IMG/VR virus record: IMGVR_UViG_3300043313_001352
Coordinates: 50,035-114,034 of that record
Length of the DNA stretch: 64,000 nucleotides
DNA from: a virus
Direction: 5' to 3' (one strand)
In this document: positions 5,402-55,209 of the stretch, one piece after another
Numbering within the stretch: the stretch's first letter is position 1
Layout: each line of letters begins with the position of its first letter
Program-made: the position numbers and the translations under genes
Notes under the pieces: model-generated
Databases searched by the model: none
What the model was told of the DNA's origin: nothing
What the model saw: only the letters and a program-made list of their open reading frames with translations

Positions 5402-5486
5402 CGTCGCTCTCCTCCACGTTGATTGGTGATTCACCTGTTGCCAACCTACCGAGCCCGCCCCGCTGGGCTAGGCTCTCCCCGCCCTC

Positions 5487-5838
5487 GGCAAGTCGGGGCA
5501 AGGCTTGGCTTGGCATGGCAGGGCAGGGCTCCCCCTAGGCCAGGCGCGGTCAGGCAGGGTTCGGCTCGGTCAGGCAGGGCAGGTTCGGCAGGGCGCGGTG
5601 TGCTGAGGTCCGGCGTGGCGAGGTGGGGCAAGGCACGGCAGGCTCGGAGCGGCTCGGCACGGCTAGGCATGGTGAGGCAGGCACACCCAGGCGGGGTCCG
5701 GCAGGGCACGTCAGCATTTGGCAGGGCATGGCAGGTGGGGCAAGGCTCGGTGTGGCCTGGCGGCGTACGGCATGGTTGGGTTCGGTTCGGCGTGGCAGGC
5801 ACGGTTAGGCATGGCAAGGTGAGGCGTGGCGAGGCGCG
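5487..5838 (+). ncRNA. orphan GGY-NN pentamer mini-array (putative guide RNA precursor, ~6 units)
   Basis: Reads ggcaa ggctt ggctt ggcat ggcag ggcag ggctc... with GGCA-GGY punctuation, the same grammar as the 21.6-25.6 kb array but on the opposite strand. Confidence 0.75.
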
Positions 5839-5885
5839 AGGGAACCCGCTCGCTCGTCGTCAGGGTGGTGTGTACTCTTCTCCCC

Positions 5886-6290
5886 ATGGGAGGGAACAAG
5901 CGCGGGTCGGTATTACGGTCACTGACCTGCCACTACTGCGGTGAGCGGGCCGAGGGCGAAGACCACATCGTGCCGCGAGCCGACCTGCCCAAGCCGCTCT
6001 CGAAGCTGCCCTACTGGTTCCGCGCCAACGACGTCGTTCCGGCCTGCCAGCCCTGCAACGGCGACAAGGCGTGGTTCAGGTCCGACTGCGTCTGCTCGCA
6101 CTGCACATGGGCTTGGTCCACCGCTCACGCGCTGTTCCTGCCCGAGGGCTACACCGAGCGCGGTTGGGTCGCCATCCAGCAGAACCCGACCATCGCGATG
6201 CCGCTCGCGGTCCCGCGCCCCGACCGGTCCGCCTACCCAGGCACCCGCGAAGGCCGGTCCGACCGCGAGTCCCAGGCCCTGTCGAACTAG
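5886..6290 (+). CDS. HNH endonuclease
   Basis: CHYCG...EDHIVP...NDVVPACQPCNGDK; leaderless start (TACTCT, 7 nt, ATG 5886). Confidence 0.85.
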   Translation: MGGNKRGSVLRSLTCHYCGERAEGEDHIVPRADLPKPLSKLPYWFRANDVVPACQPCNGDKAWFRSDCVCSHCTWAWSTAHALFLPEGYTERGWVAIQQNPTIAMPLAVPRPDRSAYPGTREGRSDRESQALSN

Positions 6291-6908: not shown

Positions 6909-7373
6909 CTACCGCCCACCCCAGGCCCGGTTCACCTCGTCGAGCACCGTCCACGGCGCCCGCCCGGCCTCGTTCGAGGTGAACCGGACGATCCGCCAGC
7001 CCAGCGCCTCGATCTCGCGCTGCCGCTTGTGGTGCTTGGCCCAGGCTTCCTGCGGCCCGTGGAAGGCCAGCCCGTCGATCTCGATCCCGAGCTTGCGCCC
7101 GGCCAGCCCGAAGTCCAGGTAGTAGCGCCCCACGCGCACCTGACGACGCAGCCCGGCCAGTGCAGGCCACCGGTCCGGCGATGCCGTGTACGCCGCCCAC
7201 AGCACGTCCTCGGACGGCCCCACCCACGGTCCGCCGACCTTCTTCTCCCCCGCCCCGCCAGCCGTCCCAGCCACAGTGAACCGGCCGTCCTTGCCCCGCG
7301 CCCGCCCCCGCACCGGGGTCCCCCGGACCAGGATCATCCGGGGAGTCCGCACCACCCTGCGCCGCCGCGCCAT
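6909..7373 (-). CDS. DUF559 / Vsr-like endonuclease
   Basis: RRQVRVGRYYLDF...LGIEIDGLAFH...RQREIEALGWRIVRF. Confidence 0.85.
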   Translation of the reverse strand: MARRRRVVRTPRMILVRGTPVRGRARGKDGRFTVAGTAGGAGEKKVGGPWVGPSEDVLWAAYTASPDRWPALAGLRRQVRVGRYYLDFGLAGRKLGIEIDGLAFHGPQEAWAKHHKRQREIEALGWRIVRFTSNEAGRAPWTVLDEVNRAWGGR

Positions 7374-21083: not shown

Positions 21084-21554
21084 TCAGCTGGCTTCACCCG
21101 CGCTGGCACTGAGGTCGGTGAGCACCTCGTTGGCGAACTCCGCCATGTGCTCGTAGCGCTTCTTGAAGGATCGCCAGTCACGGCGCATCTGGCGCAGCAT
21201 CAGCTCGCGCTGGATCGGGTCCGTGATGACCTCCTCGATCGGCTCGTACGCCGAGGTCGGGCTGCCGTCTTCTCCACGGGTGACCCAGAACGCCCGGAGG
21301 TCGGCGCGCTTGTTGCCGACGTCGGCCTTGTACTTCACGCGCAGCAGGTTCCCGGCCTGGTGCAGCCGCCACTTGTGCGCGGCCACGTCGTCACGCCAGT
21401 CGAACCGGTGGTGCAGTGGGTGGTCAGGATTCGAGGCTTCCTCGACCACGACCTCTGGGGTCAGCAGCCCGCGCTTGTCTCGGATCGCCAGCAGCACGTC
21501 ACGCAGGTTCTCACCAGCGCTGGGCACTGGGGTCTCGTCGGTTCCGTTCGTCAT
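21084..21554 (-). CDS. conserved phage protein, putative accessory factor of the RAMP/GGY-NN array system
   Basis: LTPEVVVEEASNPDHPLHHRFDWRDDVAAHKWRLHQAGNLLR; directly follows the array on the same strand; RBS GGGAGG and possible -10 TACGAT (~21588-21583). Confidence 0.75.
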   Translation of the reverse strand: MTNGTDETPVPSAGENLRDVLLAIRDKRGLLTPEVVVEEASNPDHPLHHRFDWRDDVAAHKWRLHQAGNLLRVKYKADVGNKRADLRAFWVTRGEDGSPTSAYEPIEEVITDPIQRELMLRQMRRDWRSFKKRYEHMAEFANEVLTDLSASAGEAS

Positions 21555-21610
21555 TGCGTCCCTCCCGTTTCAGGTTGGTGAATCGTACCTCACCACACCC
21601 GTCTCGTCAG

Positions 21611-24600
21611 TAGCCGCGCCGGGCCACGCCGAGCCGTGCCCAACCATGCCTTGCCAATCCGCGCCTGCCGCACCTTGCCGCACCCACCTATCCATGCCGG
21701 TCCCAGCCTCACCACGCCTGCCTGGCCGCGCCACGGCGCGCCTTGCCCGGCCATGCCTTGCCAACCCCGCCTGCCTTGCCCGGCCGCGCCTAGCCTTTCC
21801 ACACCGCGCCTGCCCCGCCATGCCGAACCTGGTCACGCCTCGCCCAGACGGGCCTGCCAAGCCCAGCCCAGCCAAACCTTGCCTTGCCGCACCTGGCTGT
21901 GCCACGCCTGCCTGGCCGCGCCACACCCAGTCGTGCCAGGTCCCGCCTAGCCATTCCCTGCCTGCCTCGCCGTGCCTGACCGCACCCCACCATGCCTAGC
22001 CCCACCGCGCCTGCCATGCCGTACCAGACCTTGCCGAGCCAACCGGGGCTGCCTTGCCAAGCCCACCGCACCTAGCCCTCCGCGCTGCGCCTGTCCATGC
22101 CTAGCCCTGCCTGCCTCGCCATGCCGTACCGGACCCTGCCGGACCGGACCACTTCGGAACACACCTAGCCATGCCCTGCCGAGCCTGCCAAGCCACGCCC
22201 CACCGGACCCGACCACGCCTAACGCCACCTGGCCCCGTCAGTCCGTACCTAGCCACGCCTGCCTTGCCGTGCCGTGCCGGGCCTAACCCCACCCGACCAT
22301 GCCTTGCCTGCCGCGCCGCGCCCACCCGGCCATGCCTAGCCCCAGGTCACCTCGCCCAGCCTGCCTCGCCCAACCCGGCCATGCCTAGCCCTGTACGCCG
22401 CGCCACGCCTGCCGGACCAAGCCGCGCCTGACCGAACCAAGCCCCGCCGAGCCCACCTCGCCTGCCGGACCTGGCCGTGCCTGGCCTAGCCGCGCCCATC
22501 CATGCCCCGCCTGCCAAGACCCGCCGTGCCGTGCCATCGGTACCGAGCCCTACCAAACCACGCCTGCCGCGCCGTGCCAGACCGCTGCCGTGCCGACCAC
22601 GCCTAACCTTGCCCCGCCTGCCGTGCCATGCCCAGTCGCACCCTGCCGCGATCGCCATGCCCAGCCGTGCCGTTCCTGCCATGCCGGACCTCGCCCTCCC
22701 GGCCATGTCGTGCCCTGCCCCGCCTGCCCTGCCGAGACTGGCCGAGCCGTGCCATGCCTTGCTCACCTGGCCGTGCCGAGCCCGGACCCGCCTGCCTTGC
22801 CATGCCGGGCCGAGCCGTGCCTACCTGACCTAGCCCTGCCTGCCCAGCCACAGCTTGCCGTGCCTTGCCATCCGCGCCTCGCCTGCCGCACCCCACCTAG
22901 CCTGACCGAGTCATGCCCCGCCTGCCTCGCCTTGCCAGGACATGCCTTGCCACACCGCGGTGCACCAACGCCTCGCCTGCCAAGCCTTGCCTTGCCGTGT
23001 GCTGCCAAGCCGGGCCTGGACATGCCCACACGTGCCCTGCCGACCCGAACCACACCGAGCCATGCCTGCCGCGCCACGCCTTGCCTTGCCATGTCAACCG
23101 GGCCTGGCCCTGCCGCCCGCGCCTTGCCACGCCTGCCCGACCACACCACGCCTTGACCTACCCACGATGCCCCGCCTGCCGGGCCTAGCCCTGCCTTGCC
23201 AGACGATCCTGGCCGCGCCTGCCCTGCCTTGAGCGCCTTGCCTCGACCCGCCGTGCCAGGACTGCCGGACCGTACCGTGCCCAGCCTCGCCACGCCGTAC
23301 CTAGCCGCACCTGCCGGACCGTGCCTTGCCCAGCCACTCCATCCGTACCTAGCCTGCCGAGCCGTGCCTTGTCACGCCACGTCCCGCCCGGACTCGCCCC
23401 ACCGAGCCATGCCTGCCCAGCCGAACCACTCCTAGCCTGGCCATACCCTGCGCTGCCTGCCGTACCGAGCCACGCCGTACCGCGGAAGCCACGCCGATGC
23501 CTTGCCCCGCCTGCCGAGCCGTTCCTGGCCATGTCCCGCCGCGCCGTGTGCTGCCCCGCCTAGCCCCGCCTGCCGCGCCATGCCTTGCCGACCTTGCCTC
23601 GCCCAACCGTGCCAGACCTGCCCCGCCGCACCTAGCTGCACCGCACCAAGACCCGCCTGCCGCGCCTGGCCGAACCTTGCCATCCTTGCCCTCCGCGCCG
23701 CACCGAGACACGCCTGCCCAGCCCCGTCGTGCCATGCCTGGCCGCGCCCCACCTGACCAAGCCTGCCGAGCCGGGCCGCACCATCCTCGCCATCCGGTGC
23801 CGTGCCCCGCCTTGCCTGCCGCGCCGCGCCCTGCCAAACCTAGCCAAGTCGTGCCCTGCCATGACGAGCCGTGCCGGACCTGCCGTACCTCGCCACGCCC
23901 AGCTCCGCCGAACCTCCCGAGCCCAGCCATGCCTGCCGAGCCGAGCCGCGCCCCGCTTCGCCCTGCCAGGCCCGACCTTGCCATGCCTGCCACACCCGGC
24001 CTTGCCACATACTGCCGCGCCCACCGATCCTGGCCGCGCCCAGCCATGCCTGCCCGGCCCCGCCGCACCTCGCCATGCGCTGCGATACCACGCCACGCCC
24101 TCCGCGCCTGCCTGGCTCAGCCACACCGTCCCGTGCCACGTATCCCAGACCACGCCATGCCTGCCTCACCTAGCCCTGCCAAGCCCGGCCAATCCTGGAC
24201 GTGCCGGACCGAGCCAAGCCTGCCGGACCACGACGTCCATGCCCTGCCGCTGCCATGTGATGCCCTCCGCACCGAGCCACGCCTGCCTGACCGCACCAGA
24301 CCCGGCCGCACCCTGCCTAGACCACCGCGCCATGCCTGCCGTGCCGAGCCAGCCCTTGCCTCGTGAAGCCCAGCCCCGCCTCGCCGTGCCCAGCCAATCC
24401 GCGCCTGCCCCACCGATCCAAGCCCTGCCTTGCCTAGGCAAACCACGCCTGCCTGGCCTAGCCGGACCAAGCCGAACCCCGCCTATCCCCGACCCGCCTG
24501 CCGGACCGCACCTTGCCGTCCGCGCCGCGCCCAACGATGCCCAGCCACGCCTGCCGAACCGTGCCACGCCGTACGCCCCAAGCCGGACCCAACCTGCCCC

Positions 24601-25590
24601 GCCTCGCCTAGCCCAGTCTCGCCATGCCCAGCCTGGCCGTGCCCCGTTCACCGCGCCTGCCGAGCCTCGCCCCACCGACCTAGCCAACCCAGACCTAGCC
24701 TGCCGCGCCTCGCCCAGACAAACCATCCTCGCCGGACCGCCCGCACCTCGCTGCGCCAAGCCTGCCGCGCCACGTCATGCCACAGCTCGCCGCCCGTACC
24801 AAGCCTCGCCTGCCCCACCTCACCTAGCCAGGACGCGCCGGACAGCACCACGCCTCGCCACACCTTGCCTGCCGGGCCGCACCGAACGATGCCGAAAGCC
24901 ACCAAGCCCAATCATCCGAGCCGCACCACGCCTGCCTTGCCCGGCCGGACCGGACCGCGCCGTACCCGCCCCTGACAAACCCTGCCTAGCCCTGCCAGCT
25001 CCCTGCCATGCCTGGCCTGCCAGACCACGCCCCTCCGAACCTGGCCACACCATGCCCTGCCTCGCCTGCCGTGCCCGACCCTGCCAACGACGCCTAGCCC
25101 TGACACACCATGCCCTGCCTGCCACGCCGTGCCCAACCAAGCCCGGCCGGTCCCTGCGATGCCTTGCCATGCCAAGCCTGCCGTGACCCGCCTTGCCACG
25201 CCCCGCTTGCCCCGACGCACCTGGCCTTGCCTAGCCTGCCGAACCTAGCCGAGCCACACCATGCGTAGCCCCGCCGGACCAACCCGAGCCCCGCCCTGCC
25301 TGCCGCGCCTGGCCGTTCCCAGCCCACCAAGCCACACCGTCCCGGCCAAGCCTGGCCGTGCCAAGCCTGCCCAACCGCGCCTGGCCAGACCAAGCCAAGC
25401 CGTGCCATCCGCGCCTTGCCGACCACTCCGTGCCGCGCCCCGCCTGCCGGGCCTGGACTCGCCGTGCCATGCCTAGACCTGCCTGCCATGCCGCGACGAC
25501 CGGGCCAAGAATCCCATGCCCCGCCCCGCCTAGCCTGCCCCGCCGAGCGATGCCCTGCCGCGCCTAGCGTTGCCATCCCGTGCCTGCCGT
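21611..25590 (-). ncRNA. ~4-kb GGY-NN pentamer guide array (about 75-85 units of ~7-15 pentamers separated by GGCA-GGC); VIPR-like RNA array
   Basis: The + strand parses as NN-RCC pentamers (tagcc gcgcc gggcc acgcc gagcc gtgcc caacc atgcc ttgcc...) with a recurrent gcc-tgcc punctuation. The NN content is unique per unit, and the ORFs here are low-complexity artefacts. Confidence 0.85.
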
Positions 25591-25601
25591 GTCCGGACGT
25601 G

Positions 25602-25644
25602 GGACGAGGCAGGACGCACCCCCCAGTGGCGCCCTGCCTCGTCC
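25602..25644 (-). other. hairpin between the RAMP-like gene and the array (leader/processing or attenuation element)
   Basis: Perfect 12-bp inverted repeat ggacgaggcagg (25602-25613) / cctgcctcgtcc (25633-25644). Confidence 0.65.
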
Positions 25645-25659
25645 GGCTCTGAGCTGAGG

Positions 25660-26343
25660 TTACTTGACCTCGACCGAGCGCGTCGGGTCGATCATGAAGG
25701 TGCCCATGTCGCCCTTCTTCTCCGGGCGCCACTCACCGACGCCGACACCCAGGCCACCGGCCTCGATCAGCGAGAGCACGCTCTCGCGGGTCAGCATCGA
25801 CTTCACGTACGTCACCTCCAGCACCGTCGACCACTCGGTGAACTGCGGCCGGTAGCGCAGGTCGGTGCCGCCGTTGCCGACGCGCACGACGTCCTCGCGC
25901 ATGATCGGCTCGCCCTCGATCCGGACCATCATCTGGCCCTCGGTCTTGGACATCTCGCCGGAGAAGAACAACGTCTGCCGGAGGCTGACCATGGTCACGC
26001 TCTTGTCGAAGAACCTCGCAGCGCTGACGGTCGCGGCCTTGAACGCGATCGAGGGGAACCCGTAGCCGCCGTCGTCCATCTTGTAGGCCGCGGCCTCGTA
26101 GTCGCCCTCGGGGTCCTTGGGCGCCTTCGGGCTCTTGCGGCCCTGCATCGCATCCAACATCTGCCTCTTCGCCTTCTCGCTGAACTTGTGCATGATCAAC
26201 GGCGCGGAGCCGACGATCGGGATCAGCAGCGTCTCGGTGCCGATCCGGGAGATCTCGATCGCCGGTGCGCTCTCGTCCTCGGCGGGAGGAGGAGTCGCTG
26301 CGGTCTTCTTGGCTGCGGTCTTCTTGGCAGGCTTCGTGGCCAT
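25660..26343 (-). CDS. RAMP/Cas7-like RNA-binding protein (Vipr-like effector)
   Basis: GSAPLIMH (beta1), GFPSIAFKAATVSAA (cf. RAMP IPGSSLKGxxR) and a C-terminal Gly-rich loop GGLGVGVGEWRPEKKGDMGTF. RBS AAGGA before ATG 26343; lies immediately upstream of the array. Confidence 0.75.
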   Translation of the reverse strand: MATKPAKKTAAKKTAATPPPAEDESAPAIEISRIGTETLLIPIVGSAPLIMHKFSEKAKRQMLDAMQGRKSPKAPKDPEGDYEAAAYKMDDGGYGFPSIAFKAATVSAARFFDKSVTMVSLRQTLFFSGEMSKTEGQMMVRIEGEPIMREDVVRVGNGGTDLRYRPQFTEWSTVLEVTYVKSMLTRESVLSLIEAGGLGVGVGEWRPEKKGDMGTFMIDPTRSVEVK

Positions 26344-32349: not shown

Positions 32350-35300
32350 CTAGGTGTTGAGGAAGGAGGTCGTCAGGTAGATGACGTCACCGTTGGCCAC
32401 GGTGCCGATCGTGACTCCACCGCCAGAAGAGATCTGACAGTTGACTACCGTGTTGGTGCCGTTGCGGGCGAGGAGGTTGACGGAGATTACTGGGCGTCCA
32501 GCAGTCAGCGGGATCGTCGCCATGGTCGTACCCGAGCCTGAGGCGCGCGAGAAGGTTCCTCGGAAGTAGACCTGCTCTCCGATGATCTTGTACGCAGGCA
32601 CGATGTTTCCAGCACCCCACCCCGCTCCGTACGCGAAGGAGTTCCAGCCACCACCTTGCGCGGAGTCGGCAGGCATGGACTCATCAGTGGCCCACTCGAT
32701 CCTTCCGGCGTCGATGTTGAAGTACGCGACCAGCACCCAGTTGTTCGGCACCGTGAAGTCGCTGAGGTAGTTCGTGTACCGGAAGTTTGCGGCCAGTGAG
32801 GTCGCAGCAGACCCGAAGGGGATCTCGTACCAGAGAACGTCCCATGAACTCATAGGGACGCCTGCCGAGGTGACCGTCTTTTGAGTGGCCCCGCCGAAGT
32901 TCGGGATCACCGTGCCAACAGGCGGCATGGTGATCTCGAAGTAGCCAGAAGGGGCAAGGTTGACGCTTCTACCGATACTCATCGGCATGAACCGCGCAGA
33001 CCACGAGATGTTGTAGTTGATGTCAACGACCTTGACACCGCCACCAGAGAGTTGTGACTGGGCACGGATGGAGTAGTACAGCTGCTCAAACGCCTTGCCA
33101 GTGAAGGAAGTCGCGCCAGCGCCTCCGACGTCCAGGGTCTCGAAGTGAGCGACACCGTCACCAGTGAGCTTGATCTTGGGGAACCCGCCAGTGCCTGGTG
33201 CGTTGGACTCCCATGAGGCTGGAGACGCAGCGATGAAGCTGGTGAGCAGCGGCGGCGCATCGGTGTCACCTACGGCACCGACGAAGTTCGGGGTGCTGAC
33301 GGTCGAGTACGTCGCTCCGACTCCAGACGGCAGGAACGCAGGCTGCTCAGGCTGCAGGATGAAGTCAGTCCGGATCGGCGTGATGTTGAGCGCCGCCCGA
33401 GTCAGGTAGAACCGGAACGAGTTCACATCGTTGACAGTCCGTGCCGTGCCCTTACCTGCAGCCGGGTCTGGCAGGTCCGGCACCGTGACGGTCAGCCGAG
33501 CCCGCTTCTTCATCGTGATCGAGGCGTACGCCGAGGCGTTCGACTCCTGGATGGCCCCTTGGGAGTCGTACCAGGTGAACGCTCCCCACCAGATCGAGGG
33601 ATCCGTGGCTGCCCAGGTGATCCCGGTGTAGTTGTAGAACTGCGGGCCGTCAGTGGCCGGAGCGGCCGTGAACCTCGTGAACGCACCAGTCAGCACATCT
33701 CCACACGCGCTGACACTCCGGGTCGCTGGGACCGCTGGGAACTCCAGGTCGACCAGACGCGCGGGCGAGGCAGCGTCAGTGAAGACGTAGTTGTTCACCG
33801 TCCCGTGGATCACCCAGATGTCCCGGTCGGTCGTCTCGAAGCCCATCCGCTGCGAGGAGCCGTAGGTGACACCGCACAGATCCTCGTCCTGGGCGAAGAA
33901 GGATGAGTTGATGGTCTTCGTGGCGCTCGGGGTGATCGTGGTGTCGGTGAAGGCCAAGGTGGCGAGTTCAATGGTGCCACCGGGCCATGGTGCGAACATG
34001 TTCCGCTTGGCTTGCGCGACCATGTGTGCGCGGGTAGCACCGGTCGCTGAGAAGCACCGTCCCAGCCGCCATTGCCAGAACCAGGAGAAGGTACCGTCCT
34101 GACGCTCGGCCTTCTTGATCGGGGCGAGAGTGCCCGAGGTGTTCATCGCTGAGTCGTCCCAGCTGGTGATCATGTACTTCTCGTCGCGGGCTCCAACGTA
34201 CCCAGCGGTGCGGAAAAATCCGTTGGTGACCTGTCGCTCAAGCCCACCAACAGCGATGACTGAGTTGCCATGGAAGGTGTAGTACGCAGCTGTCTCCCCG
34301 TTGCTGTTCGCGACGCGGGGGACCTGCCACCAGGTGGTCCCCTTCTTCATCGTCGCGTCGTCGAAGAATGTGTTCGCACAACGGAACGAGCCAGTGGACT
34401 CAGCACTGTCCAGGTGGAAGCCCCAGAACGGGTCACACCACTGTCCCCGTGCGAACGCGGACTGGGGGTAGTCCGTGCCCAGCGAGGGACCTGAGGTGGC
34501 ACCCACGGTCTGGGTCTGCAGGATGGTCTTGGAGCCCATCGCGAAGGTCGACTGGCCGCGGACATCCATCCCCTGGCCGACCGTGAGCCCGCGTGCCATG
34601 ATCTGCGCGTCGATCACCGAAGGCTTCTGTGGATCGTTGGGCAGGTCGACCCGGATCGAGACACCATCGGAGCCGTACTGCCTCAAACCCTCGCTGGACA
34701 GCTCCATCCGCTGCCCGGACTCAGCCGTCTTGATCTTCCCGATGATGGCGAGGTCAGCGTCCAGCTTCGCGCCCTTGATCTGAATCGCGTCCACCAGGTT
34801 GGTGTAGATGTAGCCGTCGGAGATGTCGGCCTCGGTGATCTGACGCAGGGTGGCCGAGCCAGCAGTACCGGGAGCAGCGGAGTTGAACCCGCCACCGATC
34901 TTGGCGTCCTTGGCGACGATCCGCACGTAGTAGGTGACCGAGCCGTCCTTGACCAGGAAGGTGCCGTCCGCCAGCTGCTCACGGATCGTGTAGGAGGTCG
35001 CCGTGGTCTCGATCTGCAACGTCGCTGCCGATGGCGTGAACGTGGCACCGGTGGTAGCGCAGTGCACCTCGTAGGTCACCGTGTCGTGGTTGAGGATCGC
35101 AGGCCACTTGATCCCCAGCGAGGAGACCGAGCCCGTCACCGTAGCTGCGGGTGAGGACGCAGGCGCAAGAGCATCGGGCGTGGCGGCGTTGTACGCCGAG
35201 TCAGCCGTGGCCGGGACGTTCGAGCTGGCCACAGTGAGCAACAGGTCGAAGATGCCAGAAGCAGCCGGGATGTCTGTCTCAGGCACCAGCGTGGTGTTCC

Positions 35301-38300
35301 AGCCTGTCTGCCAGGTGTCAGGTGGCAGGGTGTGTGAGATCTCGGCATCCACTGCTGTGATCTTCGGGTACTGCCAGTAGTTGCTGGCTGCCTGCGAGGT
35401 CAGGATGATGACCAACGTCCCGGTGGAGATGCGTCGAGCTACCCGAACCCCAATCGGCAAGTTGCCGGTGTTCACTCCCGTCGCGTTCGCGACTGAGGGC
35501 GGTGGACCTGCGTAGGAGTAACCGGATGTCTCCAGGTTGAAGGTCCCCTGGGTGGAGGCGTAGTTGAACCCCGAGAGCTTGATCTTGTACATCCGGTTGG
35601 TGAACGTGATCGGGGTGTCGATCACGATGTTGCCCGTCAGGTTCCCAGCCGCGTTCGCGTAGCTGGTCACGTCTCGGAACAGCTTCCCGTTGGCCCCGAT
35701 CAGCGAGATCTTGGGCAGCGCCTGAGAGGCAGCCGTGTAGGAGGAACTCTTGGAGACCCCGGTGTAGGTGAAGGTGAGGTTCGAGTAGGTGATCTTGTTG
35801 GTGGTGTACAGCTCGGTGTTGGTCAGGTAGCCAGGCTCGGTCGGGACCCAGGGAGCCACTGGAGTTGCCACCACCGGTACGGCAGGTGCTGCTGCTCCAA
35901 CAGGAGTCACCGTGGCGTAGTACGGAGTGACCGCCGTGATGCTGACACCCTGGGCACCAGCACCACCGGTCGAGCCCTGTGCTCCCGTGTAGGAGACAGA
36001 CCAGGCGAAGGTCTTGGTGAAGCTGACACCTCCGACCGTGATCGGAACCGTCAGAGTGCCGCTCTGGGTCACCAGAGCCGTCGTGACCGTGGCTGTGAAC
36101 TGCGCCGTCAGACCGGGGTTGTTCTGGTACGTGATCGTCATGCCGGTCGGCGCACCAGTGATCGTGCCGATCGTGGCGGACTGCTGGACGGCGCCCTTGT
36201 ACGCCAGCACCTGACTGGTTGTGAACCCGGCCACTGCAGCAGAGACGGTGCCGGGGAACACCTGAGCTTCGTTGGTCAGGACGACCGTGACTGCGTCCGC
36301 GCCTACGAAGCCAGAAGAGCCGTCGGAGATCTTGGAGATCGTCATGGTGTCGGTGACACCCGACGCGCCCGTTGCCTTGATGGCCAGAGTCTTCGCAGTC
36401 ATGATCGCGCCGGTGACGGTCACGACATTGCCCGCCACCGAAGCGTAGATCGGAGCAGCACCAAAGGTGCCGCCGTCTGCACTGAACGTCCACGTCGAAA
36501 TCGTGGTGCCGGTGGGAGTTCCGGTGATCACTGCCGTTGCAGGAGTTGTCGTAGCAGGTGCGACTGTGAAGTTGTCCAGCCTGCCAGCGTTGACGCCGAA
36601 GTTGTAGAGACCGTGTCGGGTGCCTGTGTAGGTGGCATCGGTGGCGGTCACTACCGTCACGTCGTTGATCTTGCCTTGCAGTGTTGAGCCAGACGCGGTG
36701 ATGGAGACCTTGTCGCCGAGCACGGCCAATGCCGTGGACTGGCCAATGGTCGTGTACGTCTCGGCACCGTACGCCCCTGCTGACCGATAGATCTGCAAGG
36801 ACCCGTTGTTGTTGATGACCAGCACGTAGCCGTTCAGGTTGGTCAAGTTGTGCCGGAACGCTATCCCTCCAGAGAGTAGGCCGGTGATGACAAAGGAGAC
36901 GGTGACGTCCGCGGTGCCACACTCCACGTCCGCGTAGGACTGACCACCCGTAGCGCCAGCCGTCGCGATGTACGCCTTGCCGCCGCTGACACCCCACACC
37001 GAACTGTTGTCGTTGCGCCACGCCTGACCCGTCTCAGTGGTACCGAGCGAGGTGGTTGAGTCTCCACGGTTGAACGAGTCGAGGATCGTGGGAGCAGGAG
37101 CAGACAGTGCCTGTGTGGTGGCGGTCAGGTCAACGATCGTGGCCGCCGCGCCAGTCGCTCCACCCGCACCTGTGAAACTCAGCGCCCACGTGAAGACCTG
37201 GTTGAACGTCATTCCGCCCACGGTCACTGGGATGGTGAACGTTCCAGTCGCTGTTGCCAGAGCAGTCGTCACCGTGAAGGTGATCAGAGGTGCTGTAGTC
37301 CCGTTGTTGGTCACCGCTGCTGTGATGCCGGTAGCGCCACCAGTGATCGTTCCGACCGTGGCTACCTGAGCCACCGTGCCCTTGTACGCGATGACCGTCG
37401 TGGTCGCTGTCGTAGCCAGCGCGTTGGTGAGACCAGCAGGGAAGCTCTGTGACTCGTTGGACAGCAACACGGTATAGGCGTCTGCTCCTGCGGGACCTGA
37501 TGGTCCCGTGCCTCCGGTGGCGCCAGTTGCACCGGTGAGCACCTTCGCCACCGTGAGCGAGTCCGCGACACCCGCGTTGTTGCCTGCCCGCACCGCGATC
37601 GTGCTGGCCGTCATCGTCGCCCCGGTGATGGTCACCACGTTCCCGGCGATCGACACGCCAGGTGGTGCTGTCCCGGACCAGGCACCGCTGTTGACGCTGT
37701 AGTCCCACACCGTGATCGTGGTGTTGACCGGGGTGCCCGTGATGGTTGCCGTGGCCGGGGCGGTAGCACCGGTCCCACTTGCAGGAGAGACCAGAACCTG
37801 AGCCGTCGAGGTCAGCGTGATCGTGGCAGCGTTAGATCCAGGAAGACCCTGTGGACCTTGGGTCTGGGTCCACTCGTACAGGTTCGCATCGGTACTCTCG
37901 ACGGCGGTCGTCTGGTTGTACGCGAGGCCCATGTGAGTGCCCACAGCGCTGTCGGTGACGTTCTTGACAGCGTGGTAGACCTCCTTGATGAAGACCTTGA
38001 TTCCGACAGCCTTGTTGTACGACAGGAGAGCGAGACGGACAGCAGTGGGAGCGCCCGCTGGAACGGTTGCCACACCGCTGTAGTCCGCGTAACTCGTGGT
38101 GATTCCACTGGGCTGCAAGCTAGTGAAGCGAACGACTTCTGTAGTACCGGCAGCGTTCAGCAGGATCGCGTAGATCCCCGACCCATCCCCTATGACGGTG
38201 CTTCTCATCCTGATGCGGAGGTAGATCACGTCGCCCGGAACCACGTCAAGCGTCTGCATGGCCGTGGCGCCATTCGTTGCGAGAAGGCCAGAAGTGAGGG

Positions 38301-41300
38301 CGAGAGCACCTTCGGTTGCATCCCACGCGACCGTGTGAGCAGCGTTGTACCACTGCATCCCGTTAACGCTGCGCTGCCAGTCAGCGGGCAGCGTCGGGTC
38401 AACCGTGTCCAGCTTGGCGAAGTCACCGTTACGGATGATGTCGTTGCCGTACTTGATCCAGGTGTAGGTGGGCTGTCCGTTAGGACCAATGGGACCTTGC
38501 ACGCCCTGGTTTCCCTGGGGACCTTGGATCAGTGACCAGTCATAGTCGGTGTAGATGGACGACTCAGTGGCAGAGGACTTGTTGTAGGCCAAGCCCATGT
38601 AGATCTTGCCTGCAGGTAGGTCACTCATCCCCGTCGAAGGCGTGTCCGCGTACTTCAGCCACGTGTAGGTGGGCAGACCGTTCGCGCCGGTCGGACCTTG
38701 GATCCCTTGAGACCCGGTGGCACCGGTGAAGGCCAGCGACCAAGAGAAGATCTGGTTGAAGGTCAGCCCGCCTACGGTCACCGGGATGGTAAAGGTCCCC
38801 GTGGCCGTGCTCAGTGCTGTCGTCACGGTGAAGGTGATCAGTGGCGCGGTGGTGCCGTTGTTGGTCACCGCTGCGGTGATGCCGGTAGCGCCACCGGTGA
38901 TCGTCCCGACCGTAGCGGTTTGTGCCACCGTGCCCTTGTAGGCGATGACGGTGGAAGTGGCAGACCCCGCTAGAGCGTTGGTGAGCCCAGCAGCAAAGCC
39001 CTGAGACTCGTTGCTGAGGAGGACCGTGTAGGCGTCAGCACCTGCAGGTCCAGTGCTGCCAGTAGAGCCGGTAGCACCGTCGGAGACCTTCGCTACGGTC
39101 AGCGTGTCACTGTTGCCGGAAGCCCCGATCGCCTTCACCGCGATGGTCTTGGCCGTCATGGTCGAGCCAGTGATCGTGACCACGTTCGATGCAGCGGGCC
39201 TGGAGACACCAGGTGGAACGGTCCCGGAGAAGGCAGCTCCGTCCACGCTGTACTGCCAGCCTGCCGTGGAGTCCGGGATCGTGGTGTTCGTCGCTACAGC
39301 CGTCACTGTCGCAGTCGCGGGTGTGATCGTTCCGCCTACACCAACTGCCAGCACCTGCGTGCTCGCTGTCAGGTCGACAGTCGAGGCAGGAGCACCAGCC
39401 ACACCCTGGGAGCCTTGTGGACCCTGAGGGCCTTGGATGAGCGACCACTCATAGTCGGTAGGAACGGTCGTCTCGGTAGCAGTGGTCTTGTTGTAGGCAA
39501 TACCGATGTAGGTCTTGCCTGCGGGCAGGTCGGAGATGTCAGCGACGATCGGGGTAGCGCTGGTGGCGTACTTGATCCAGGTGTAGGTGGGCTGTCCGTT
39601 CGGACCAGTCGGACCTTGCAGACCGGTGTTGCCCTGTGGGCCAGTAGTCAGGTTCCACTCATAGTCGGTGTAGATGCTGGACTCGGTAGCAGTGGTCTTG
39701 TTGTAGGCGATACCCAGGTACGGCTTGCCAGCAGGCAGGTCGCTCATCCCGGTGGTAGGCGTGTCGGCGTACTTGACCCAGGTGTAGAGCTGCTGCCCGT
39801 TCGGCCCGATCGGACCTTGCACACCTTGAGACCCGGTCAGACCCAGCGACCAGGAGAAGGTCTTGGTGAAGGTGATCCCACCGACGGTGATCGGCACCGT
39901 CAACGAACCTGAGGTGGTCACCAGCGCGGTGGTCACCGTGACGGTGAAGCCAGCCGCCGTCGTGCCGTTGTTGGTCAGTGCCGTAGTCAGACCAGTGACC
40001 TGCCCGGTGATCGTGCCGATCGTGGCCGTCTGCTGAACAGTCCCCTTGTACGCCAGCACCTGGCTGGTGGTTGATCCAGCGACAGCTGCGGTGGTGGAGC
40101 CAGGGAACACCTGGGCTTCGTTGGTCAGCTGCACGGTGTAGGCATCAGCGCCCGCACTGCCGTCCATGGACTTGGCCACGGTCAAGGTGTCAGCGACCCC
40201 GTTGGCGTCGGACATGCGCACCGCGATCGTGCGCGCGGTCACGGTGCCGCCGGTGACGGTGACCACGTTGCCGCTGCGCGAGACGCCCGTGGGGACCGAG
40301 GTCGAGAACACCCCACCGTCGACGCTGTAGTCCCACACCGTGATCGTGGTGTTGATCGGGGTGCCGGTCACCACGGCCGTCGTGGGCGTGGTGGCCCCTC
40401 CGGTCGCCGGGGAGGTCAGAACCTGGCTGGTCGAGGTCAGGCTGATGGTCGCAGCGGGAGTGCCAGGCACGCCGTTGGCACCGATCGGCCCGGCGAACGA
40501 CAACGACCAGCTGAACACCTGGTTGAACGTGATGCCGCCTACCGTGACCGGGACGGTGAAGGTCCCGTTGGCAGTGACCAGCGCGGTAGTGACCGTGAAC
40601 GTGATCAGGGGTGCCACAGTGCCGTTGCTGGTCACCGCGGCGGTGATGCCCGTGGCTCCGCCGGTGATCGTCCCGACGGTCGCGGTCTGCTGCACCGTCC
40701 CCTTGTAGGCGATCACCGTCGTCGTCGCCGTTGCGGCCTGAGCGTTCGTGGTACCAGCGGTGAAGGTCTGCGACTCGTTCGAGAGCACGACGGTGTACGC
40801 GTCGGCTCCTGCCGCACCGGTCGCACCGGTCGAGCCGTGCGCGGAGACCGAGTAGGCAGTCGACGTCGTGGTGTCGGAGTAGGTGGTGATCGTGCGCGTC
40901 CACAGGAACTGTCCAGGGATGGTCGCCTGCGGCGTCGATTGCCACGTCCCGACTGGTGCCGTCGTGCCGGTCGAGCCGACCTGGTAGGTGACCGCAGTGC
41001 CGGTGACACCGACACCTGGTGCCCCGGTGGAGCCCGAGGTGCCGTGTGCGGAGACTGAGTACGCCGTCGAGCTGGTGGTGTCGGAGAAGGTCGTGACCGT
41101 CCTGGTCCACAGGAACTGCCCAGGGGAGGTGGCCTGCGGACTGGACACCCAGGTGCCTGTCGGCGCAGTGGTGCCGGTTGAACCCACCTGGTAGGTGACG
41201 GTGGTGCCGGTGACGCCAACGCCCGGCGCTCCGGTACCGCCAGTGCTGCCGGTGGCGCCGTCGGAGACCTTGACCACGGTGAACGTGTCGGCCAGCCCAG

Positions 41301-44300
41301 CAGCATCGGCCATCTTGATCGTGATGGCCCTCGCCGTCATGGTCGTGCCGGTGATCGTCACGACGTTGCCGGTGCGACTCACACCCGCAGGAAGCGCGGG
41401 CAAGAAAGTGGCGCTACCGTCCACGCTGTAGGTCCAGGCCGTGATGGTGGTGTTCGTGGCGACACCTGTCACGGTGGTCGTTGCGGGAGTGGTGGCTCCC
41501 CCGGCTGCAGGGACCGCCAACACCTGCGAGGTAGCAGTCAGCGAGATGGTCGGAGCAGCGGCACCAGGCACACCCTGGGAGCCTTGTGGACCTTGCGGTC
41601 CTTGGATCAGCGACCAGGTGTAGTCGGTAGGAACCGTGGTCTCCACGGCAGTGGTCTTGTTGAACGCGAACCCGATGTAGGGCTTGCCTGCCGGGGTATC
41701 GACCAGCCCGCCGCCATTGATGTCATCGGCGTACTTCACCCAGGTATAGGTGGGCTGACCGTTAGCCCCAGCAGGCCCCTGGATGCCCATGTTCCCCTGA
41801 GGCCCCTGGATCAGGCTCCAGTCATAGTCCGTGTAGATGCTGGACTCGGTAGAGCTGGTCTTGTTGTATGCCACACCCATGTAGGTCTTACCGGCAGGCA
41901 GATCGCTCATCCCAGTAGTCGGCGTATCGGCGTACTTCAACCACGTGTAGAGGCTTGCTCCGTTAGCACCAGTCGGACCCTGGATGCCTTGTGATCCTGT
42001 TGGACCTGGTGGTCCTTGGATGAGCGACCACTCATAGTCCGTGGTGATCGTGCTCTCTGCAGCCGTGGTCTTGTTGTACGCGATGCCCATGTAGGTCATG
42101 CCGACCGGAGAGTCACTGATCTGTGGAGTGGTGGGCGCTCCGTTGGGCGCGTACTTGATCCAGGTGTAGGTCGGTTGCCCGTTGGGACCGATCGGCCCCT
42201 GGATCCCCGTGTTCCCCTGGGGTCCCTGAATCAACGACCATTCGTAGACGTTGTAGTTGACGCTGTCCTCGGTCTGGGTCGTCTTGTTGTAGGCGATGCC
42301 CATGTACTTCTTGCCCGTGGGGTCATCGTTCATCCCCGTGGTGGGGGTGTCCGCGTACTTGATCCAGGTGTAGGTCGGCAAGCCATTCGCACCGACAGGC
42401 CCCTGGATGCCCTGTGAACCCTGAGGGCCTTGCGGACCCTGGATGAGTGACCACTGGTAGTCGGTGGGGATCGTCGTCTCGGTGGGCGTGGTCTTGTTGA
42501 ACGCGAGACCGATGTAGGTCATCCCAGCCGGTACATCCACGATCTGGCCAGCGGTGGGGTTGCCGTTCGGTGCGTACTTGACCCACGTGTACGTGGTGAC
42601 ACCATCAGCCCCAGGAGTACCTGGGATGCCCTGGTTTCCTTGTGGACCCTGGATCAAGCTCCAGGTGTAGTCGGTGTACACCGTGGTCTCAATCGCTGAG
42701 GTCTGCCCAACCGCGATCCCCATCCAGGTCTTGCCCGTAGGAGAGTCAGACATGTCAGCAGGGATCGGAGTAGCGCTGGATGCGTACTTCAACCAGGTGT
42801 AGTAGGTGATCCCCGGAGAGCCTTGGATGCCCTGAGAGCCAGCGGGTCCTGGTGGGCCTTGGATCAAGGCCCACTCATAGTCGGTCGTGACCGTGGACTC
42901 TGTGGCCGTCGTCTTGTTGTACGCGATGCCGATGTAGCTCATCCCGACCGGCGAGTCGCTGATCTGGCCGGTGGTGGGTGCTCCGTTGGGCGCGTACTTG
43001 ATCCAGGTGTAGGTCGGTTGCCCGTTGGGGCCAGTGGGTCCTTGCACACCGGTGTTGCCCTGGGGGCCTTGAATCAACGACCAGCCATAGTCGGTGTAGA
43101 TGCTGGACTCGGTGGAGCTGGTCTTGTTGTACGCCAGACCCATGTAGGTCTTCCCGGCTGGGAGATCGCTCATCCCAGTCGTCGGTGTGTCGGCGTACTT
43201 CAGCCAGGTGTACATCGGCTGGCCGTTGGGACCGGTCGGTCCTTGGATTCCTTGTGACCCGACCGCGCCAGCGAGGCTCAGCGACCAGGCGAACGCCTTG
43301 GTGAACGACTTGCCGTCTGCCGTGATAGGCACCGTCAAGGTGCCGTTGACGGCCGTCAGCGCCGACGTGACATCAATCGTGAAGCCCGCCGTGGTGGTGC
43401 CGTTGTTGGTCAACGCGGTGGAGATACCTGCCACCTGGCCGGTGATCGCACCGATCGTGGCCGGGATCTGGGTGACGCCCTTGTAGGCGATCACCTGGCT
43501 GGTGGCGCTCGCGCTCACCGCAGCTGTGGCCGTTCCCGCGAAGCTCTGCGCCTCGTTGGTGAGCAGGATCGTGTACGCATCGGCGCCAGCCGGTCCGGTG
43601 CCACCTGCTGCGCCGTCGGAGATCTTCGCGATGGTCATGGTGTCTGCGTTGCCAGCAGCGTCAGCTGCCTTCACCGAGATCGTCTTGGCCGTCATCGTGG
43701 CACCAGTGATGGTCACGCTGTTGCCGGTGCGGCTCACTCCGGCAGGGACCGTTCCGGAGTAGGTGGCTCCGTCCACCCCGTAGGTCCAGTTGATGATCGT
43801 GGTGTTGATCGCTGCCCCGGTCACCGTGGTCGTGGCTGGGGTCGTCGTACTACCGCTCGCAGGCACGGCCAGCACCTGCGAAGTAGCCGTCAAGGTGATG
43901 ATGGCTGCGTCGGATCCAGGTGGGCCTTGGAACAAGCTCCACTCATAGTCGGTGGCGACGGCGCTCTCGACGTCGGTGCTCTTGTTGTAGGCGATACCGA
44001 TGTAGGTCTTGCCTGTCGGGGAGTCGCTCAGCCCAGCTCCGGTGGCGCTGTCGCCGTACTTGATCCAGGTGTAGGTGGGCTGACCGTCGGGACCCGCCGG
44101 GCCGGGTATGCCGGGCTCGCCGGGCTCTCCGGGCGTACCGGCGGGACCAGGCGTGCCACGGATCGGACCGATGTTCGACCACCCGGTGCCGGTCCACTTC
44201 ACACCATCGCCGACCGCAGCAGCGGTGCCGTCCATGGCCGGAGGGACCCAGCCAGGCACCGGCGTACCGACGATCCAGATCTGGCCCGGTAGGGGAGCGG

Positions 44301-44700
44301 TGGGTGCCGTCTGGGGTGTGGTGCCGATGATGCTGACGCTGGCGCCGCTGTTGCCCGTCAGACCGGACGGACCAACCGGTCCCGTGGGTCCGGTGGCTCC
44401 GCGCGGCCCGGTCGCACCGATCTGGCCTTGCGCACCCTGGGATCCTGTCGGCCCCAGCGGACCAGGGACGCCGACCGGGCCAGTCGGTCCGGTCGGACCC
44501 AGAGCACCCGGTGTGCCGACCGGCCCGGTAGGGCCAGGAACACCCTGTGGCCCCTCGGTGCCGGGGATGACCAGGTCGATCTCATTGGGATCGCTGGAGA
44601 CCAGGTTGACGCTGACCCGCGGCTCTCCGGAGATGATGTCCAGCTCGATCTCCCCCAGGACGCTGGACAGCGTCACATTGTCCGTATTGTCAACGGTCAT
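32350..44700 (-). CDS. giant (4116 aa) tail fibre/adhesin with collagen-like and tandem beta repeats
   Basis: Gly-X-Y segments alternate with >12 copies of TYTW(I/L)[22 protein letters not shown]...DY.WSLIQG and Ig-like DAYTVxLxNE repeats; CBM-like, FN3-like and C-terminal tip domains. Confidence 0.9.
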
Positions 44701-54727: not shown

Positions 54728-55209
54728 TCACTGCTCCGTCTCGTGCTGGTTCATCAGCAGCACCGAGTGACCGGTGCCCTCCATGTGGGCCTCGACCCAC
54801 GACGTGCGGATGTCCTTGTTGTCGAAGGGCATCGGCATGAAGTCCTCCGGGTGGTCGATGATGGTGCGGAGGTCGCCGTTGCACTGGACGCAGATCGCCA
54901 GGTACCAGATCTTCACGGCGGGGTCAGCCCCTCGGGTGAGTCCGGGATGCCGATGAAGTCGATGTCCTTGCCGATCGAGTTGAAGACCGCCTTCATGTGC
55001 ACGAACAGCTCGGCCATCGCCTCGACCTCGTCGTCGTAGCCGTGCAGCACGATGCCGCCGCGCTCGGTGTCGTGCAGGAAGATGCTCGCCTTGACGTCGG
55101 CGTTCTCCGGCCGCTCCAGTGGCACCGTCATCTCGGCGCACAGGTCGGTCAGTCGGTCCACCGGGTGGTCGTGGCTGGTCACGTCGTCGTCGCTGATCTC
55201 GTCGCTCAT
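54728..55209 (-). CDS. two small hypotheticals (54728-~54916; 54913-55209)
   Basis: Overlapping ORFs in the operon. Confidence 0.55.

What the first reader, a model, noticed from the sequence alone, without database searches (positions are those of the whole stretch)
5440..5885. Orphan mini-array 20 kb from its effector, on the opposite strand
About 350 nt with identical GGY-NN/GGCA grammar, preceded by a small hairpin (gagcc..gccc-cgct-gggc..ggctc, ~5451-5475). It sits between divergent genes with no RAMP gene nearby. This suggests guides can be dispersed and act in trans. Other units decode to e.g. LWEDLWAWY and VFPSTGSTALE, for which I found no clear in-window target.
Basis: partly seen in the sequence, partly recalled or inferred. 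Interest (0 to 1): 0.7.

Follow-up and report, generated by a model that had tools for sequence, protein, structure and literature searches.

The report
Secondary VIPR guide-RNA array in a phage
The 350-nt tract is a real second array of about six guide RNAs for the phage's own VIPR system, a CRISPR-like RNA-guided DNA silencer first described in 2026. It lies 20 kb from the effector gene, and one of its guides is aimed at the HNH nuclease gene next door as that gene occurs in a sister phage.

Summary
Window 5487-5837 (+) holds about 70 period-5 GGYNN units cut by five 4-nt GGCA marks. This is the same grammar as the 4-kb, 73-guide array at 21600-25590 (-).

It is a published kind of system: VIPR (bioRxiv 10.64898/2026.04.26.720920), in its "staggered array" form. 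Solo (orphan) vrRNAs were published in October 2026. Gene 25660-26343 (-) is a Vipr RAMP: its family profile hits PDB 36pp, "SUSP1 Vipr protein", at E = 1.7e-12, and its model has a Cas7/Csm3 fold. It is the only vipr in the 114-kb genome.

The mini-array and its distance from vipr are conserved in a complete 177-kb sister phage (G407). Guides m3, m4 and m6 keep all 49 aligned NN bases, m1 and m2 are diverged or replaced, and m5 is an exact one-guide indel.

Guide m5 matches the adjacent HNH gene in codon phase: 19/24 in this genome and 20/24 in the sister phage. A third, solo vrRNA outside the window matches the sister phage's allele of its own neighbour gene at 20/24, with 10 consecutive NN perfect. 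The phage's own allele is recoded by Leu and Ser codon-family switches.

Expression and Vipr loading could not be tested. Earlier first-stage notes of this scan on this same genome already listed the array and the m5-HNH match.

The parts
5463..5474 (+). Upstream motif CTGGGCTAGGCT, containing a -10-like TAGGCT 12 nt before the first GGY unit. Candidate promoter or leader of the mini-array.
   Evidence: The pattern CTGG-N1-2-CTAG-S-Y-Y occurs only twice in the 114-kb genome: here, and 14 nt before the solo vrRNA. GCGCTAGGCT is conserved in L126 and G407. The sigma-70 consensus scan found nothing here.
5451..5475 (+).
   Evidence: It is present in the minimum-free-energy fold: z = -2.3 alone, z = -0.2 in context. 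It is not conserved in L126. It overlaps the conserved CTAGGCT motif.
5487..5837 (+). Secondary (mini) vrRNA array of about 70 GGYNN units and 5 GGCA marks. Guides: m1 5497-5581, m2 5582-5640, m3 5641-5679, m4 5680-5733, m5 5734-5797, m6 5798-5842.
   Evidence: Compared with the ortholog in L126/G407: m3, m4 and m6 have NN 0/49 changed and scaffold 7/74 changed (Fisher p = 0.04); m2 has NN 16/19 changed; m5 is absent.
5734..5797 (+). Guide m5, 12 NN. Its reverse-complement reading decodes to T-[DE]-[DE]-[HQ]-[IM]-V-P-[SR]-T-[DE]-[FL]-P. It is an exact 64-nt one-guide indel relative to L126/G407.
5886..6290 (+). HNH-like nuclease gene directly downstream of the mini-array. The HNH call is weak: below the Pfam cut-off, with the motif visible by eye.
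   Evidence: Pfam HNH E = 0.017. PHROG HNH families E = 1e-3. CxxC...DHIVP...CxxCN is visible in the translation. The ortholog is 80% identical in L126/G407.
5955..5989 (-). Near-target of guide m5 inside the HNH gene (codons G-E-D-H-I-V-P-R-A-D-L-P), 19/24 NN bases, with the skipped base at the wobble position.
   Evidence: The next best score anywhere in the genome is 16. 7 of 2000 shuffled guides reach 19 or more. The site is in frame. The orthologous site scores 20/24 in L126 and in G407.
25660..26343 (-). vipr, the single RAMP effector (227 aa).
   Evidence: Profile A1 against the PDB hits 36pp, 'SUSP1 Vipr protein', at E = 1.7e-12. The AlphaFold2 model has pLDDT 93. The Foldseek top hits are Csm3 and type VII Cas7 at E about 1e-6. 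There is only one match in the genome.
25590..25648 (-). Strong stem-loop between vipr and the main array.
   Evidence: -45.8 kcal/mol, z = -3.6, 0 of 200 shuffles as good.
21600..25590 (-). Main staggered vrRNA array: about 827 units in 73 GGCA-delimited guides.
   Evidence: It is collinear with the 70-guide array of G407: 39 guides are at least 90% identical and in the same order, and 14 are found only in the window.
21084..21554 (-). Conserved vipr partner gene (vap-like, 156 aa, phrog_15946).
   Evidence: It is homologous to Gordonia phage Pipp gp44, Gordonia phage ODay gp20 and Mycobacterium phage Saal gp52 (blastp 1e-18 to 1e-30). By eye, the gene after vipr in the Thermoactinospora rubra locus L128 shares the PDHPLH-RFxW motif; this was not aligned.

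Best explanation
**What it is.** Window 5487-5837 is a second, physically detached vrRNA array of the phage's VIPR system. VIPR (Viral Interference Programmable Repeat) is an RNA-guided DNA-silencing system built on a minimal RAMP protein.

**Inferred mechanism, by homology with the published SUSP1 system.**
- The array is transcribed rightwards, probably from the conserved TAGGCT element, and perhaps together with the HNH gene.
- It is cut into about six guides at the GGCA|GG one-base overlaps (the 'staggered array' form).
- Each guide is coated by Vipr protomers made from gene 25660-26343, 20 kb away. The protomers hold the GGY triplets and expose the NN pairs.
- The filament binds double-stranded DNA that matches NN-x-NN-x, that is, codon positions 1-2 with the wobble base skipped, and blocks transcription.

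**What is shown here.**
- The grammar of the tract.
- That the gene is a Vipr homolog, and that there is only one vipr.
- Conservation of the detached layout in a sister phage.
- Selection on the NN bases.
- A codon-phased match of guide m5 to the neighbouring HNH gene family.

**What is inferred.** Transcription, processing, loading and silencing.
For: 1. Grammar: period-5 GGY units with GGCA punctuation, the same composition and guide length as the main array. This fits the published 9-16 YNNGG repeats and the 1-nt-overlap staggered arrays.
2. Effector: the family profile hits the solved SUSP1 Vipr at E = 1.7e-12. The model has pLDDT 93 and its best structural matches are Cas7/Csm3. There is a single copy in the genome.
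3. Same clade in isolated phages: Gordonia phages Pipp and ODay, Mycobacterium phage Saal and a Thermoactinospora rubra locus all carry small GGCA-punctuated arrays next to the homolog. The three phages also carry a blastp-confirmed homolog of the vap-like gene; in T. rubra the likeness of the gene after vipr was seen by eye only.
4. Conservation: the mini-array with its HNH gene lies about 16.5 kb from vipr in the complete 177-kb relative G407.
5. Selection: m3, m4 and m6 have NN 0/49 changed against 7/74 scaffold changes. m2 is replaced, with NN 16/19 changed while the scaffold is kept. m5 is an exact 64-nt guide-sized indel.
6. Target: m5 against the HNH gene scores 19/24 in this genome and 20/24 in L126 and G407, in codon frame. 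These are its top hits in both phage genomes and in the roughly 1.1 Mb of other loci held at that point.
7. Precedent for trans use of solo vrRNAs.
Against: - There are no expression or binding data.
- The sigma-70 scan found no promoter or terminator.
- Five of the six guides have no identified target in this genome, in G407, or (for m2 and the m4 core) in exact IMG/VR scans.
- The first block, m1, has an irregular interruption.
- m5 matches the phage's own HNH gene at 79%, just under the published 80% cut-off. This would be awkward for a silencer unless the mismatches are enough to prevent binding, or self-repression is intended.
Confidence: 0.85

Rival explanations
1. The mini-array is an autoregulatory or decoy element rather than a weapon. 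In the first version, m5 partly represses the phage's own, potentially toxic, HNH gene. In the second, the transcripts soak up or redirect the Vipr of co-infecting relatives, as satellite solo vrRNAs do. This overlaps with the best explanation, because the tract would still be a Vipr-loaded array.
For: m5 pairs with the phage's own HNH gene at 19/24, 120 nt downstream of the array and in frame. The array lies in what may be the 5' leader of that gene. Redirection by decoy guides is published.
Against: The sister phage keeps the array and the HNH gene but lacks m5, so m5 is not needed for HNH control. The sister allele matches m5 slightly better (20/24) than the phage's own.
Confidence: 0.15
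2. The tract is a decaying, non-functional remnant or stray duplicate of main-array sequence.
For: Several units have degenerate scaffolds (ACCCA, GTCAG, CATTT, CCCCTA). No promoter was predicted. Most guides have no known target.
Against: The GGY fraction (89%) is no lower than in the main array (83%). No mini-array guide is a copy of a main-array guide: the best NN identity is 0.8, which is within the range seen among main-array guides. NN bases are invariant in three guides across genomes that are about 86% identical, while scaffold bases drift. The indel is exactly one guide long.
Confidence: 0.07
3. The tract is something other than a guide array: a protein-coding region (ORF 5423-5944, 173 aa), or a G-quadruplex or DNA-level regulatory or replication element.
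For: An ORF is open across the tract. GG-N3 repeats could form two-tier G-quadruplexes.
Against: Period 5 is incompatible with codon structure. The indels against L126 are 64, 10, 10, 8 and 2 nt, which breaks any reading frame. The identical grammar sits next to Vipr genes in many phages.
Confidence: 0.02

Closest known systems
VIPR systems with staggered vrRNA arrays (bioRxiv 10.64898/2026.04.26.720920, fig. S18; structures in 10.64898/2026.04.26.720927)
   Same: GGY/NN pentamers with 8-14 repeats per guide. A 1-nt overlap between guides (GGCA|GG). A small RAMP effector homologous to SUSP1 Vipr. A small partner gene. Phage-borne. Codon-phased matches with a 1-nt skip.
   Different: The host phage is an actinobacteriophage-like virus with 67% GC. 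There is no 3' pseudoknot tail between guides. The main array is very large, 73 guides over 4 kb, against 3-5 guides in isolated relatives and at most about 1.6 kb in 120 sampled IMG/VR loci. Arrays are spread over three loci, 16-41 kb apart. Which of the seven published types this belongs to could not be determined, because the supplements were not held.
Solo/orphan vrRNAs of F5 satellites and of VIPR-null SUSP1-like phages (bioRxiv 10.64898/2026.10.15.759431)
   Same: The vrRNAs have no adjacent vipr and must use a Vipr made elsewhere. They score lower on the carrier's own sequence than on rivals' sequence.
   Different: Here the carrier genome has its own vipr and a full array. The detached loci are not remnants of a vipr-vap deletion. 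They sit beside the gene family they match.
Phage-encoded CRISPR mini-arrays and orphan CRISPR arrays
   Same: Short guide arrays on a virus, separated from effector genes and used in conflicts between viruses.
   Different: A different guide grammar (no repeat-spacer units), a different effector, no Cas1/Cas2, and silencing rather than cleavage is expected.

Membership tests
VIPR vrRNA array | Tandem GGY/NN (YNNGG) pentamers, about 9-16 per guide, with conserved GGY and variable NN | tested here: met
   64 pentamers, 89% GGY. Guides of 7-12 units, plus one block of 16.
VIPR vrRNA array | A Vipr (minimal RAMP) protein encoded by the same element | tested here: met
   Hit to PDB 36pp, SUSP1 Vipr, at E = 1.7e-12. 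Cas7/Csm3 fold. Single copy, 19.8 kb away.
VIPR vrRNA array | Staggered architecture: adjacent vrRNAs share one base | tested here: met
   Five GGCA|GG 4-nt steps in the mini-array and 73 in the main array. The indel against the relative is exactly one GGCA-delimited unit. Actual RNA ends could not be tested.
VIPR vrRNA array | An accessory vap gene next to vipr | tested here: met
   21084-21554 is homologous to the gene beside vipr in phages Pipp, ODay and Saal by blastp. In T. rubra only a shared motif was seen by eye. Identity with published vap1-6 was not testable. No such gene lies at the mini-array.
VIPR vrRNA array | Targets follow the 1-nt-skip rule, with at least 80% NN match and the skip at the wobble position | tested here: inconclusive
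   m5 scores 19/24 (79%) on the phage's own HNH gene and 20/24 (83%) on the sister allele, in frame. The other five guides have no target.
VIPR vrRNA array | Guides are expressed as small RNAs and co-purify with Vipr | not testable with these tools
VIPR vrRNA array (SUSP1/type II clade) | A conserved 3' tail with a pseudoknot after each repeat tract | tested here: not met
   No shared sequence was seen between guides or after the mini, main or solo tracts. No Rfam family is present in the window. The published staggered arrays also lack tails between guides, so this excludes the SUSP1 clade only.
VIPR-null solo vrRNA carrier | The genome lacks vipr and vap and keeps only 1-2 vrRNAs | tested here: not met
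   The genome has vipr, a vap-like gene and a 73-guide array.

The most novel reading that the evidence does not exclude
**Proposal.** The detached vrRNA loci are allele-linked weapons. Each sits beside the phage's own, recoded (resistant) allele of the gene that it silences in close relatives.

**Evidence, two cases.**
- The solo vrRNA lies in a 108-nt stretch present in G000 but not in G407. It matches the sister phage's allele of its neighbour gene at 20/24, with 10 consecutive NN perfect, and no shuffled guide of 2000 reaches that score. The phage's own allele scores 16/24, because Leu went from CTC to TTG and Ser from TCG to AGC, plus a Phe-to-Tyr change. Such six-fold codon-family switches change codon positions 1-2 without changing the protein, so they can get past a code that skips the wobble base.
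- Guide m5 is a 64-nt G000-only insertion. It matches the sister phage's HNH allele at 20/24 and the phage's own at 19/24. Its mismatches at Arg and Leu are again codon-family switches.

**Why linkage would matter.** Tight linkage between guide and resistant allele would stop recombination between co-infecting relatives from producing a genome that carries the guide together with a sensitive allele.
Probability: 0.3. Interest if true: 0.65.

Novelty: new member of a known kind. Interest (0 to 1): 0.45.

Why it matters
VIPR was described only in 2026, and so far mostly from Enterobacteria and Pseudomonas phages.

- **Wider host range.** This locus shows the same system in a large actinobacteriophage-like virus. 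Small arrays of the same type sit unrecognised in well-known phages (Mycobacterium phage Saal, Gordonia phages Pipp and ODay), and at least one of them is annotated as a protein gene.
- **Dispersed guides.** A phage that has its own vipr can spread guides over three loci. The detached layout is inherited, and guides turn over one unit at a time at internal positions.
- **A testable rule.** If the linkage between a guide and a resistant allele holds, it explains where detached guides are placed. It would also show how genes evade a wobble-skipping code, through Leu, Ser and Arg codon-family switches. That bears on the published claim that the code blocks synonymous escape.

Tried and rejected
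- **TRAP-like ring binding, G-quadruplex or Rho sponge.** These were my first ideas from the period-5 GG pattern. I dropped them once the VIPR papers and the hit to the solved SUSP1 Vipr explained the pattern.
- **My early note that isolates with the homolog lack arrays.** This was wrong. Arrays were found next to the gene.
- **Coding reading of ORF 5423-5944.** Rejected, because the indels break the frame.
- **Hairpin 5451-5475 as a functional element.** It is not conserved.
- **The GATTCACC motif shared by the mini-array upstream region and the end of the main array.** 4 matches against 1.4 expected, not significant.
- **Exact 1-nt-skip pattern scans of IMG/VR** for m5, m2, the solo guide and the m4 core: no hits.
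- **m5 with up to 3 mismatches** in the window and in 401 genomes of the class of T. rubra: no hits.
- **HNH and left-flank protein searches in IMG/VR:** no useful relatives. The HNH gene has no homolog in isolated phages.
- **Rfam:** no family in the window.
- **Main-array guide b39** shares 16/20 NN with m5. This is within the range seen among main-array guides, and b39 scores only 13/20 on the HNH gene.
- **NN against scaffold divergence over the whole mini-array** (29% against 12%). This mixes replaced and orthologous guides, so it was superseded by the per-guide count.

Full report
**1. Observation**

Window 5487-5837 (+) is a strict period-5 tract. A dynamic-programming parse gives 70 units: 64 pentamers (64% GGC, 25% GGT), five 4-nt GGCA steps and one 6-mer. 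GG..GG at +5 occurs 54 times, against a mean of 17 and a maximum of 35 in composition-matched shuffles.

The same signal fills 21600-25590 on the other strand. There it makes up about 827 units with 73 GGCA steps, and guides of 8-14 units with a mode of 11. No long ORF spans that 4-kb tract. A run of ten GGYNN units is never reached in shuffles of the window.

The hairpin at 5451-5475 exists, but it is weak in context and is not conserved.

**2. What kind of thing it is**

A scan of IMG/VR for ten consecutive GGYNN units hit more than 120 viral contigs of 39-71% GC, so the pattern is widespread in phages.

A literature search identified it as VIPR. vrRNAs consist of 9-16 YNNGG repeats. A small RAMP protein, Vipr, polymerises on them, holding the GGY triplets and exposing the NN pairs. 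The exposed NN pair with double-stranded DNA, skipping one nucleotide per unit, usually the wobble base of a codon. The outcome is transcriptional silencing of competing mobile elements.

"Staggered arrays", in which neighbouring vrRNAs overlap by one base, are described in that paper. This is exactly the GGCA|GG step seen here. Solo (orphan) vrRNAs that act through another element's Vipr were published in October 2026.

**3. The effector**

Gene 25660-26343 (-) has no Pfam family and belongs to a PHROG of unknown function. Its protein family is very large: 3633 clusters at 50% identity.

A 75-sequence profile hits PDB 36pp, "SUSP1 Vipr protein", at E = 1.7e-12 across the C-terminal G-rich motif. 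The AlphaFold2 model has pLDDT 93, and its best structural matches are Csm3 and type VII Cas7 at E about 1e-6. The 114-kb virus record, estimated 92% complete, holds only this one copy.

Gene 21084-21554 (-), just past the array, is homologous to the gene that accompanies the Vipr homolog in Gordonia phages Pipp and ODay and in Mycobacterium phage Saal. By eye, the gene after vipr in a Thermoactinospora rubra locus shares its PDHPLH-RFxW motif. It is therefore the vap-like partner of this clade. All four of those loci carry small GGCA-punctuated arrays beside the gene.

**4. Is the mini-array functional?**

*Relatives.*
- A soil metagenome contig, L126, carries the orthologous left-flank gene, array and HNH gene.
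- An exact 32-mer from guide m3 led to G407. G407 is a complete 177-kb phage with terminal repeats. It is collinear with this genome: 74% of this genome is covered at about 86% identity.

*Layout in G407.*
- vipr at 71565-72176 (-).
- A 3.5-kb main array directly below it.
- The mini-array with its HNH gene at 54848-55102 (+), about 16.5 kb from vipr.

The detached layout is therefore inherited.

*How unusual is this?* Three complete isolates and five other complete IMG/VR VIPR phages each keep all their long tracts in a single locus.

*Guide by guide, against G407/L126.*

| Guide | NN bases changed | Other |
|---|---|---|
| m3, m4, m6 | 0 of 49 | 7 of 74 scaffold bases changed (p = 0.04) |
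| m2 | 16 of 19 | scaffold kept, so the guide was replaced |
| m1 | 13 of 29 | diverged |
| m5 | - | exact 64-nt, one-guide indel, absent from G407/L126 |

The main arrays behave the same way. 39 of 74 guides are shared in order, and 14 are found only in the window. In orthologous guides the NN bases are better conserved than the scaffold, 4.7% changed against 8.1% (p = 0.009). This is what selection on the information in the NN bases would produce. A decaying repeat would not show it.

**5. Targets**

With the published scan rule, no guide has a match of at least 80% in its own genome.

The one outlier is m5. It scores 19/24 at window 5955-5989, in frame with the DHIVP motif of the adjacent HNH gene. 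The next best score in the genome is 16, and 7 of 2000 shuffled guides reach 19. The orthologous site in L126 and G407 scores 20/24. This was the best hit of any 12-NN guide in the roughly 1.1 Mb of loci held at that point, and it is m5's top hit in G407.

- It lies in a 108-nt stretch that has only 21 nt in its place in G407.
- It is preceded by the same CTGG..CTAGSCT motif as the mini-array. That motif occurs nowhere else in the genome.
- It matches G407 34532-34566 at 20/24, with the first ten NN perfect and in codon phase. No shuffled guide of 2000 reaches 20.
- The matched site is the ortholog of the gene that ends 48 nt from the solo vrRNA (phrog_636, with a weak DUF6011 match).
- The phage's own allele scores 16/24. 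Leu went from CTC to TTG and Ser from TCG to AGC, both synonymous codon-family switches, and Phe went to Tyr.

So the two guides in the detached loci that this phage has and its sister lacks both point at the sister's allele of the gene next door. With two cases this is suggestive only. I put it forward as the novel case, not as the main conclusion.

**6. Mechanism, and what remains open**

By homology, the mini-array is transcribed rightwards, cut at the GGCA|G steps, loaded in trans by the single Vipr, and used to silence DNA that matches NN-x. Five of the six guides have unknown targets. Exact scans of IMG/VR and a 3-mismatch scan of 401 genomes of the class of T. rubra found nothing.

**7. 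Verdict**

This is a real second array of a known system, so it is a new member of a known kind. Its value lies in four points:
- an actinophage VIPR clade;
- the size and dispersal of the arrays;
- guide turnover one unit at a time;
- the possible linkage between detached guides and recoded neighbour genes.

Noticed in passing
L143:1364-1423 (= G000:C1:34363-34422, minus strand; 15.6 kb left of the window start): A third vrRNA locus: a solo guide of 12 clean GGYNN units. It is followed by a strong bidirectional terminator hairpin and preceded by the same CTGG..CTAGCCT motif as the mini-array. It lies in a 108-nt stretch that has only 21 nt in its place in sister phage G407. It matches G407's allele of the neighbouring gene at 20/24, with 10 consecutive NN perfect.
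   Followed up: yes
window 21600-25590 (-): The main array holds 73 guides over 4 kb. Isolated relatives have 3-5 guides, and the longest tract among 120 sampled IMG/VR loci is about 1.6 kb. Compared with G407, guides are gained, lost or replaced one at a time at internal positions, unlike the polarised growth of CRISPR arrays.
   Followed up: partly
window 21600-25590 (-): About half of the main-array guides contain a second, internal 4-nt unit (GGTG, GGAT, GGTC, GGAG and others; 49 in all), against only seven 6-nt units. The mini-array has none. Whether these are further guide boundaries or GG+NN units without the Y is unknown.
   Followed up: no
L001:4611-4880 (Gordonia phage Pipp gene 43); L003:3598-3844 (Mycobacterium phage Saal, upstream of gp51); L002:4629-4771 (Gordonia phage ODay): Isolated actinophages carry small GGCA-punctuated vrRNA arrays next to an unannotated Vipr homolog. 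In Pipp the array is annotated as a hypothetical protein CDS. In Saal the annotated start of gp51 overlaps the end of the array.
   Followed up: partly
window 26255-26343 (-), including the 15-nt tandem repeat at 26297-26328: Vipr has a Lys/Ala-rich N-terminal tail of about 28 aa (AKKTAAKKTAA...). It has low pLDDT and is absent from the Gordonia and Mycobacterium phage homologs. It resembles the basic tails of actinobacterial nucleoid proteins.
   Followed up: no
window 6909-7373 (-): A DUF559 / REase_MTES_1575 endonuclease-like gene lies 600 nt beyond the HNH gene. The surroundings of the mini-array are therefore a small island of nuclease genes.
   Followed up: partly
L095:4380-5230; L008:8250-8720; L098:4550-5100: In low-GC IMG/VR phages, each guide of 10-13 GGTNN units is separated by an AT-rich spacer that looks like its own promoter (TTGCAA-N17-TATAAT) plus a T-run. 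In L098 the separator is instead a fixed GGCTAATG. These are other array architectures of the same system.
   Followed up: no
window 23458-23511 (-): Main-array guide b39 shares 16/20 NN with mini-array guide m5. The shared part decodes to [RS]-T-[DE]-[FL]-P. It may be a second guide against the same HNH motif family, but the similarity is within background.
   Followed up: partly
window 32350-44700 (-): A single ORF of 4116 aa with no PHROG match in its N-terminal 999 residues (window 32350-35349, the part tested).
   Followed up: no
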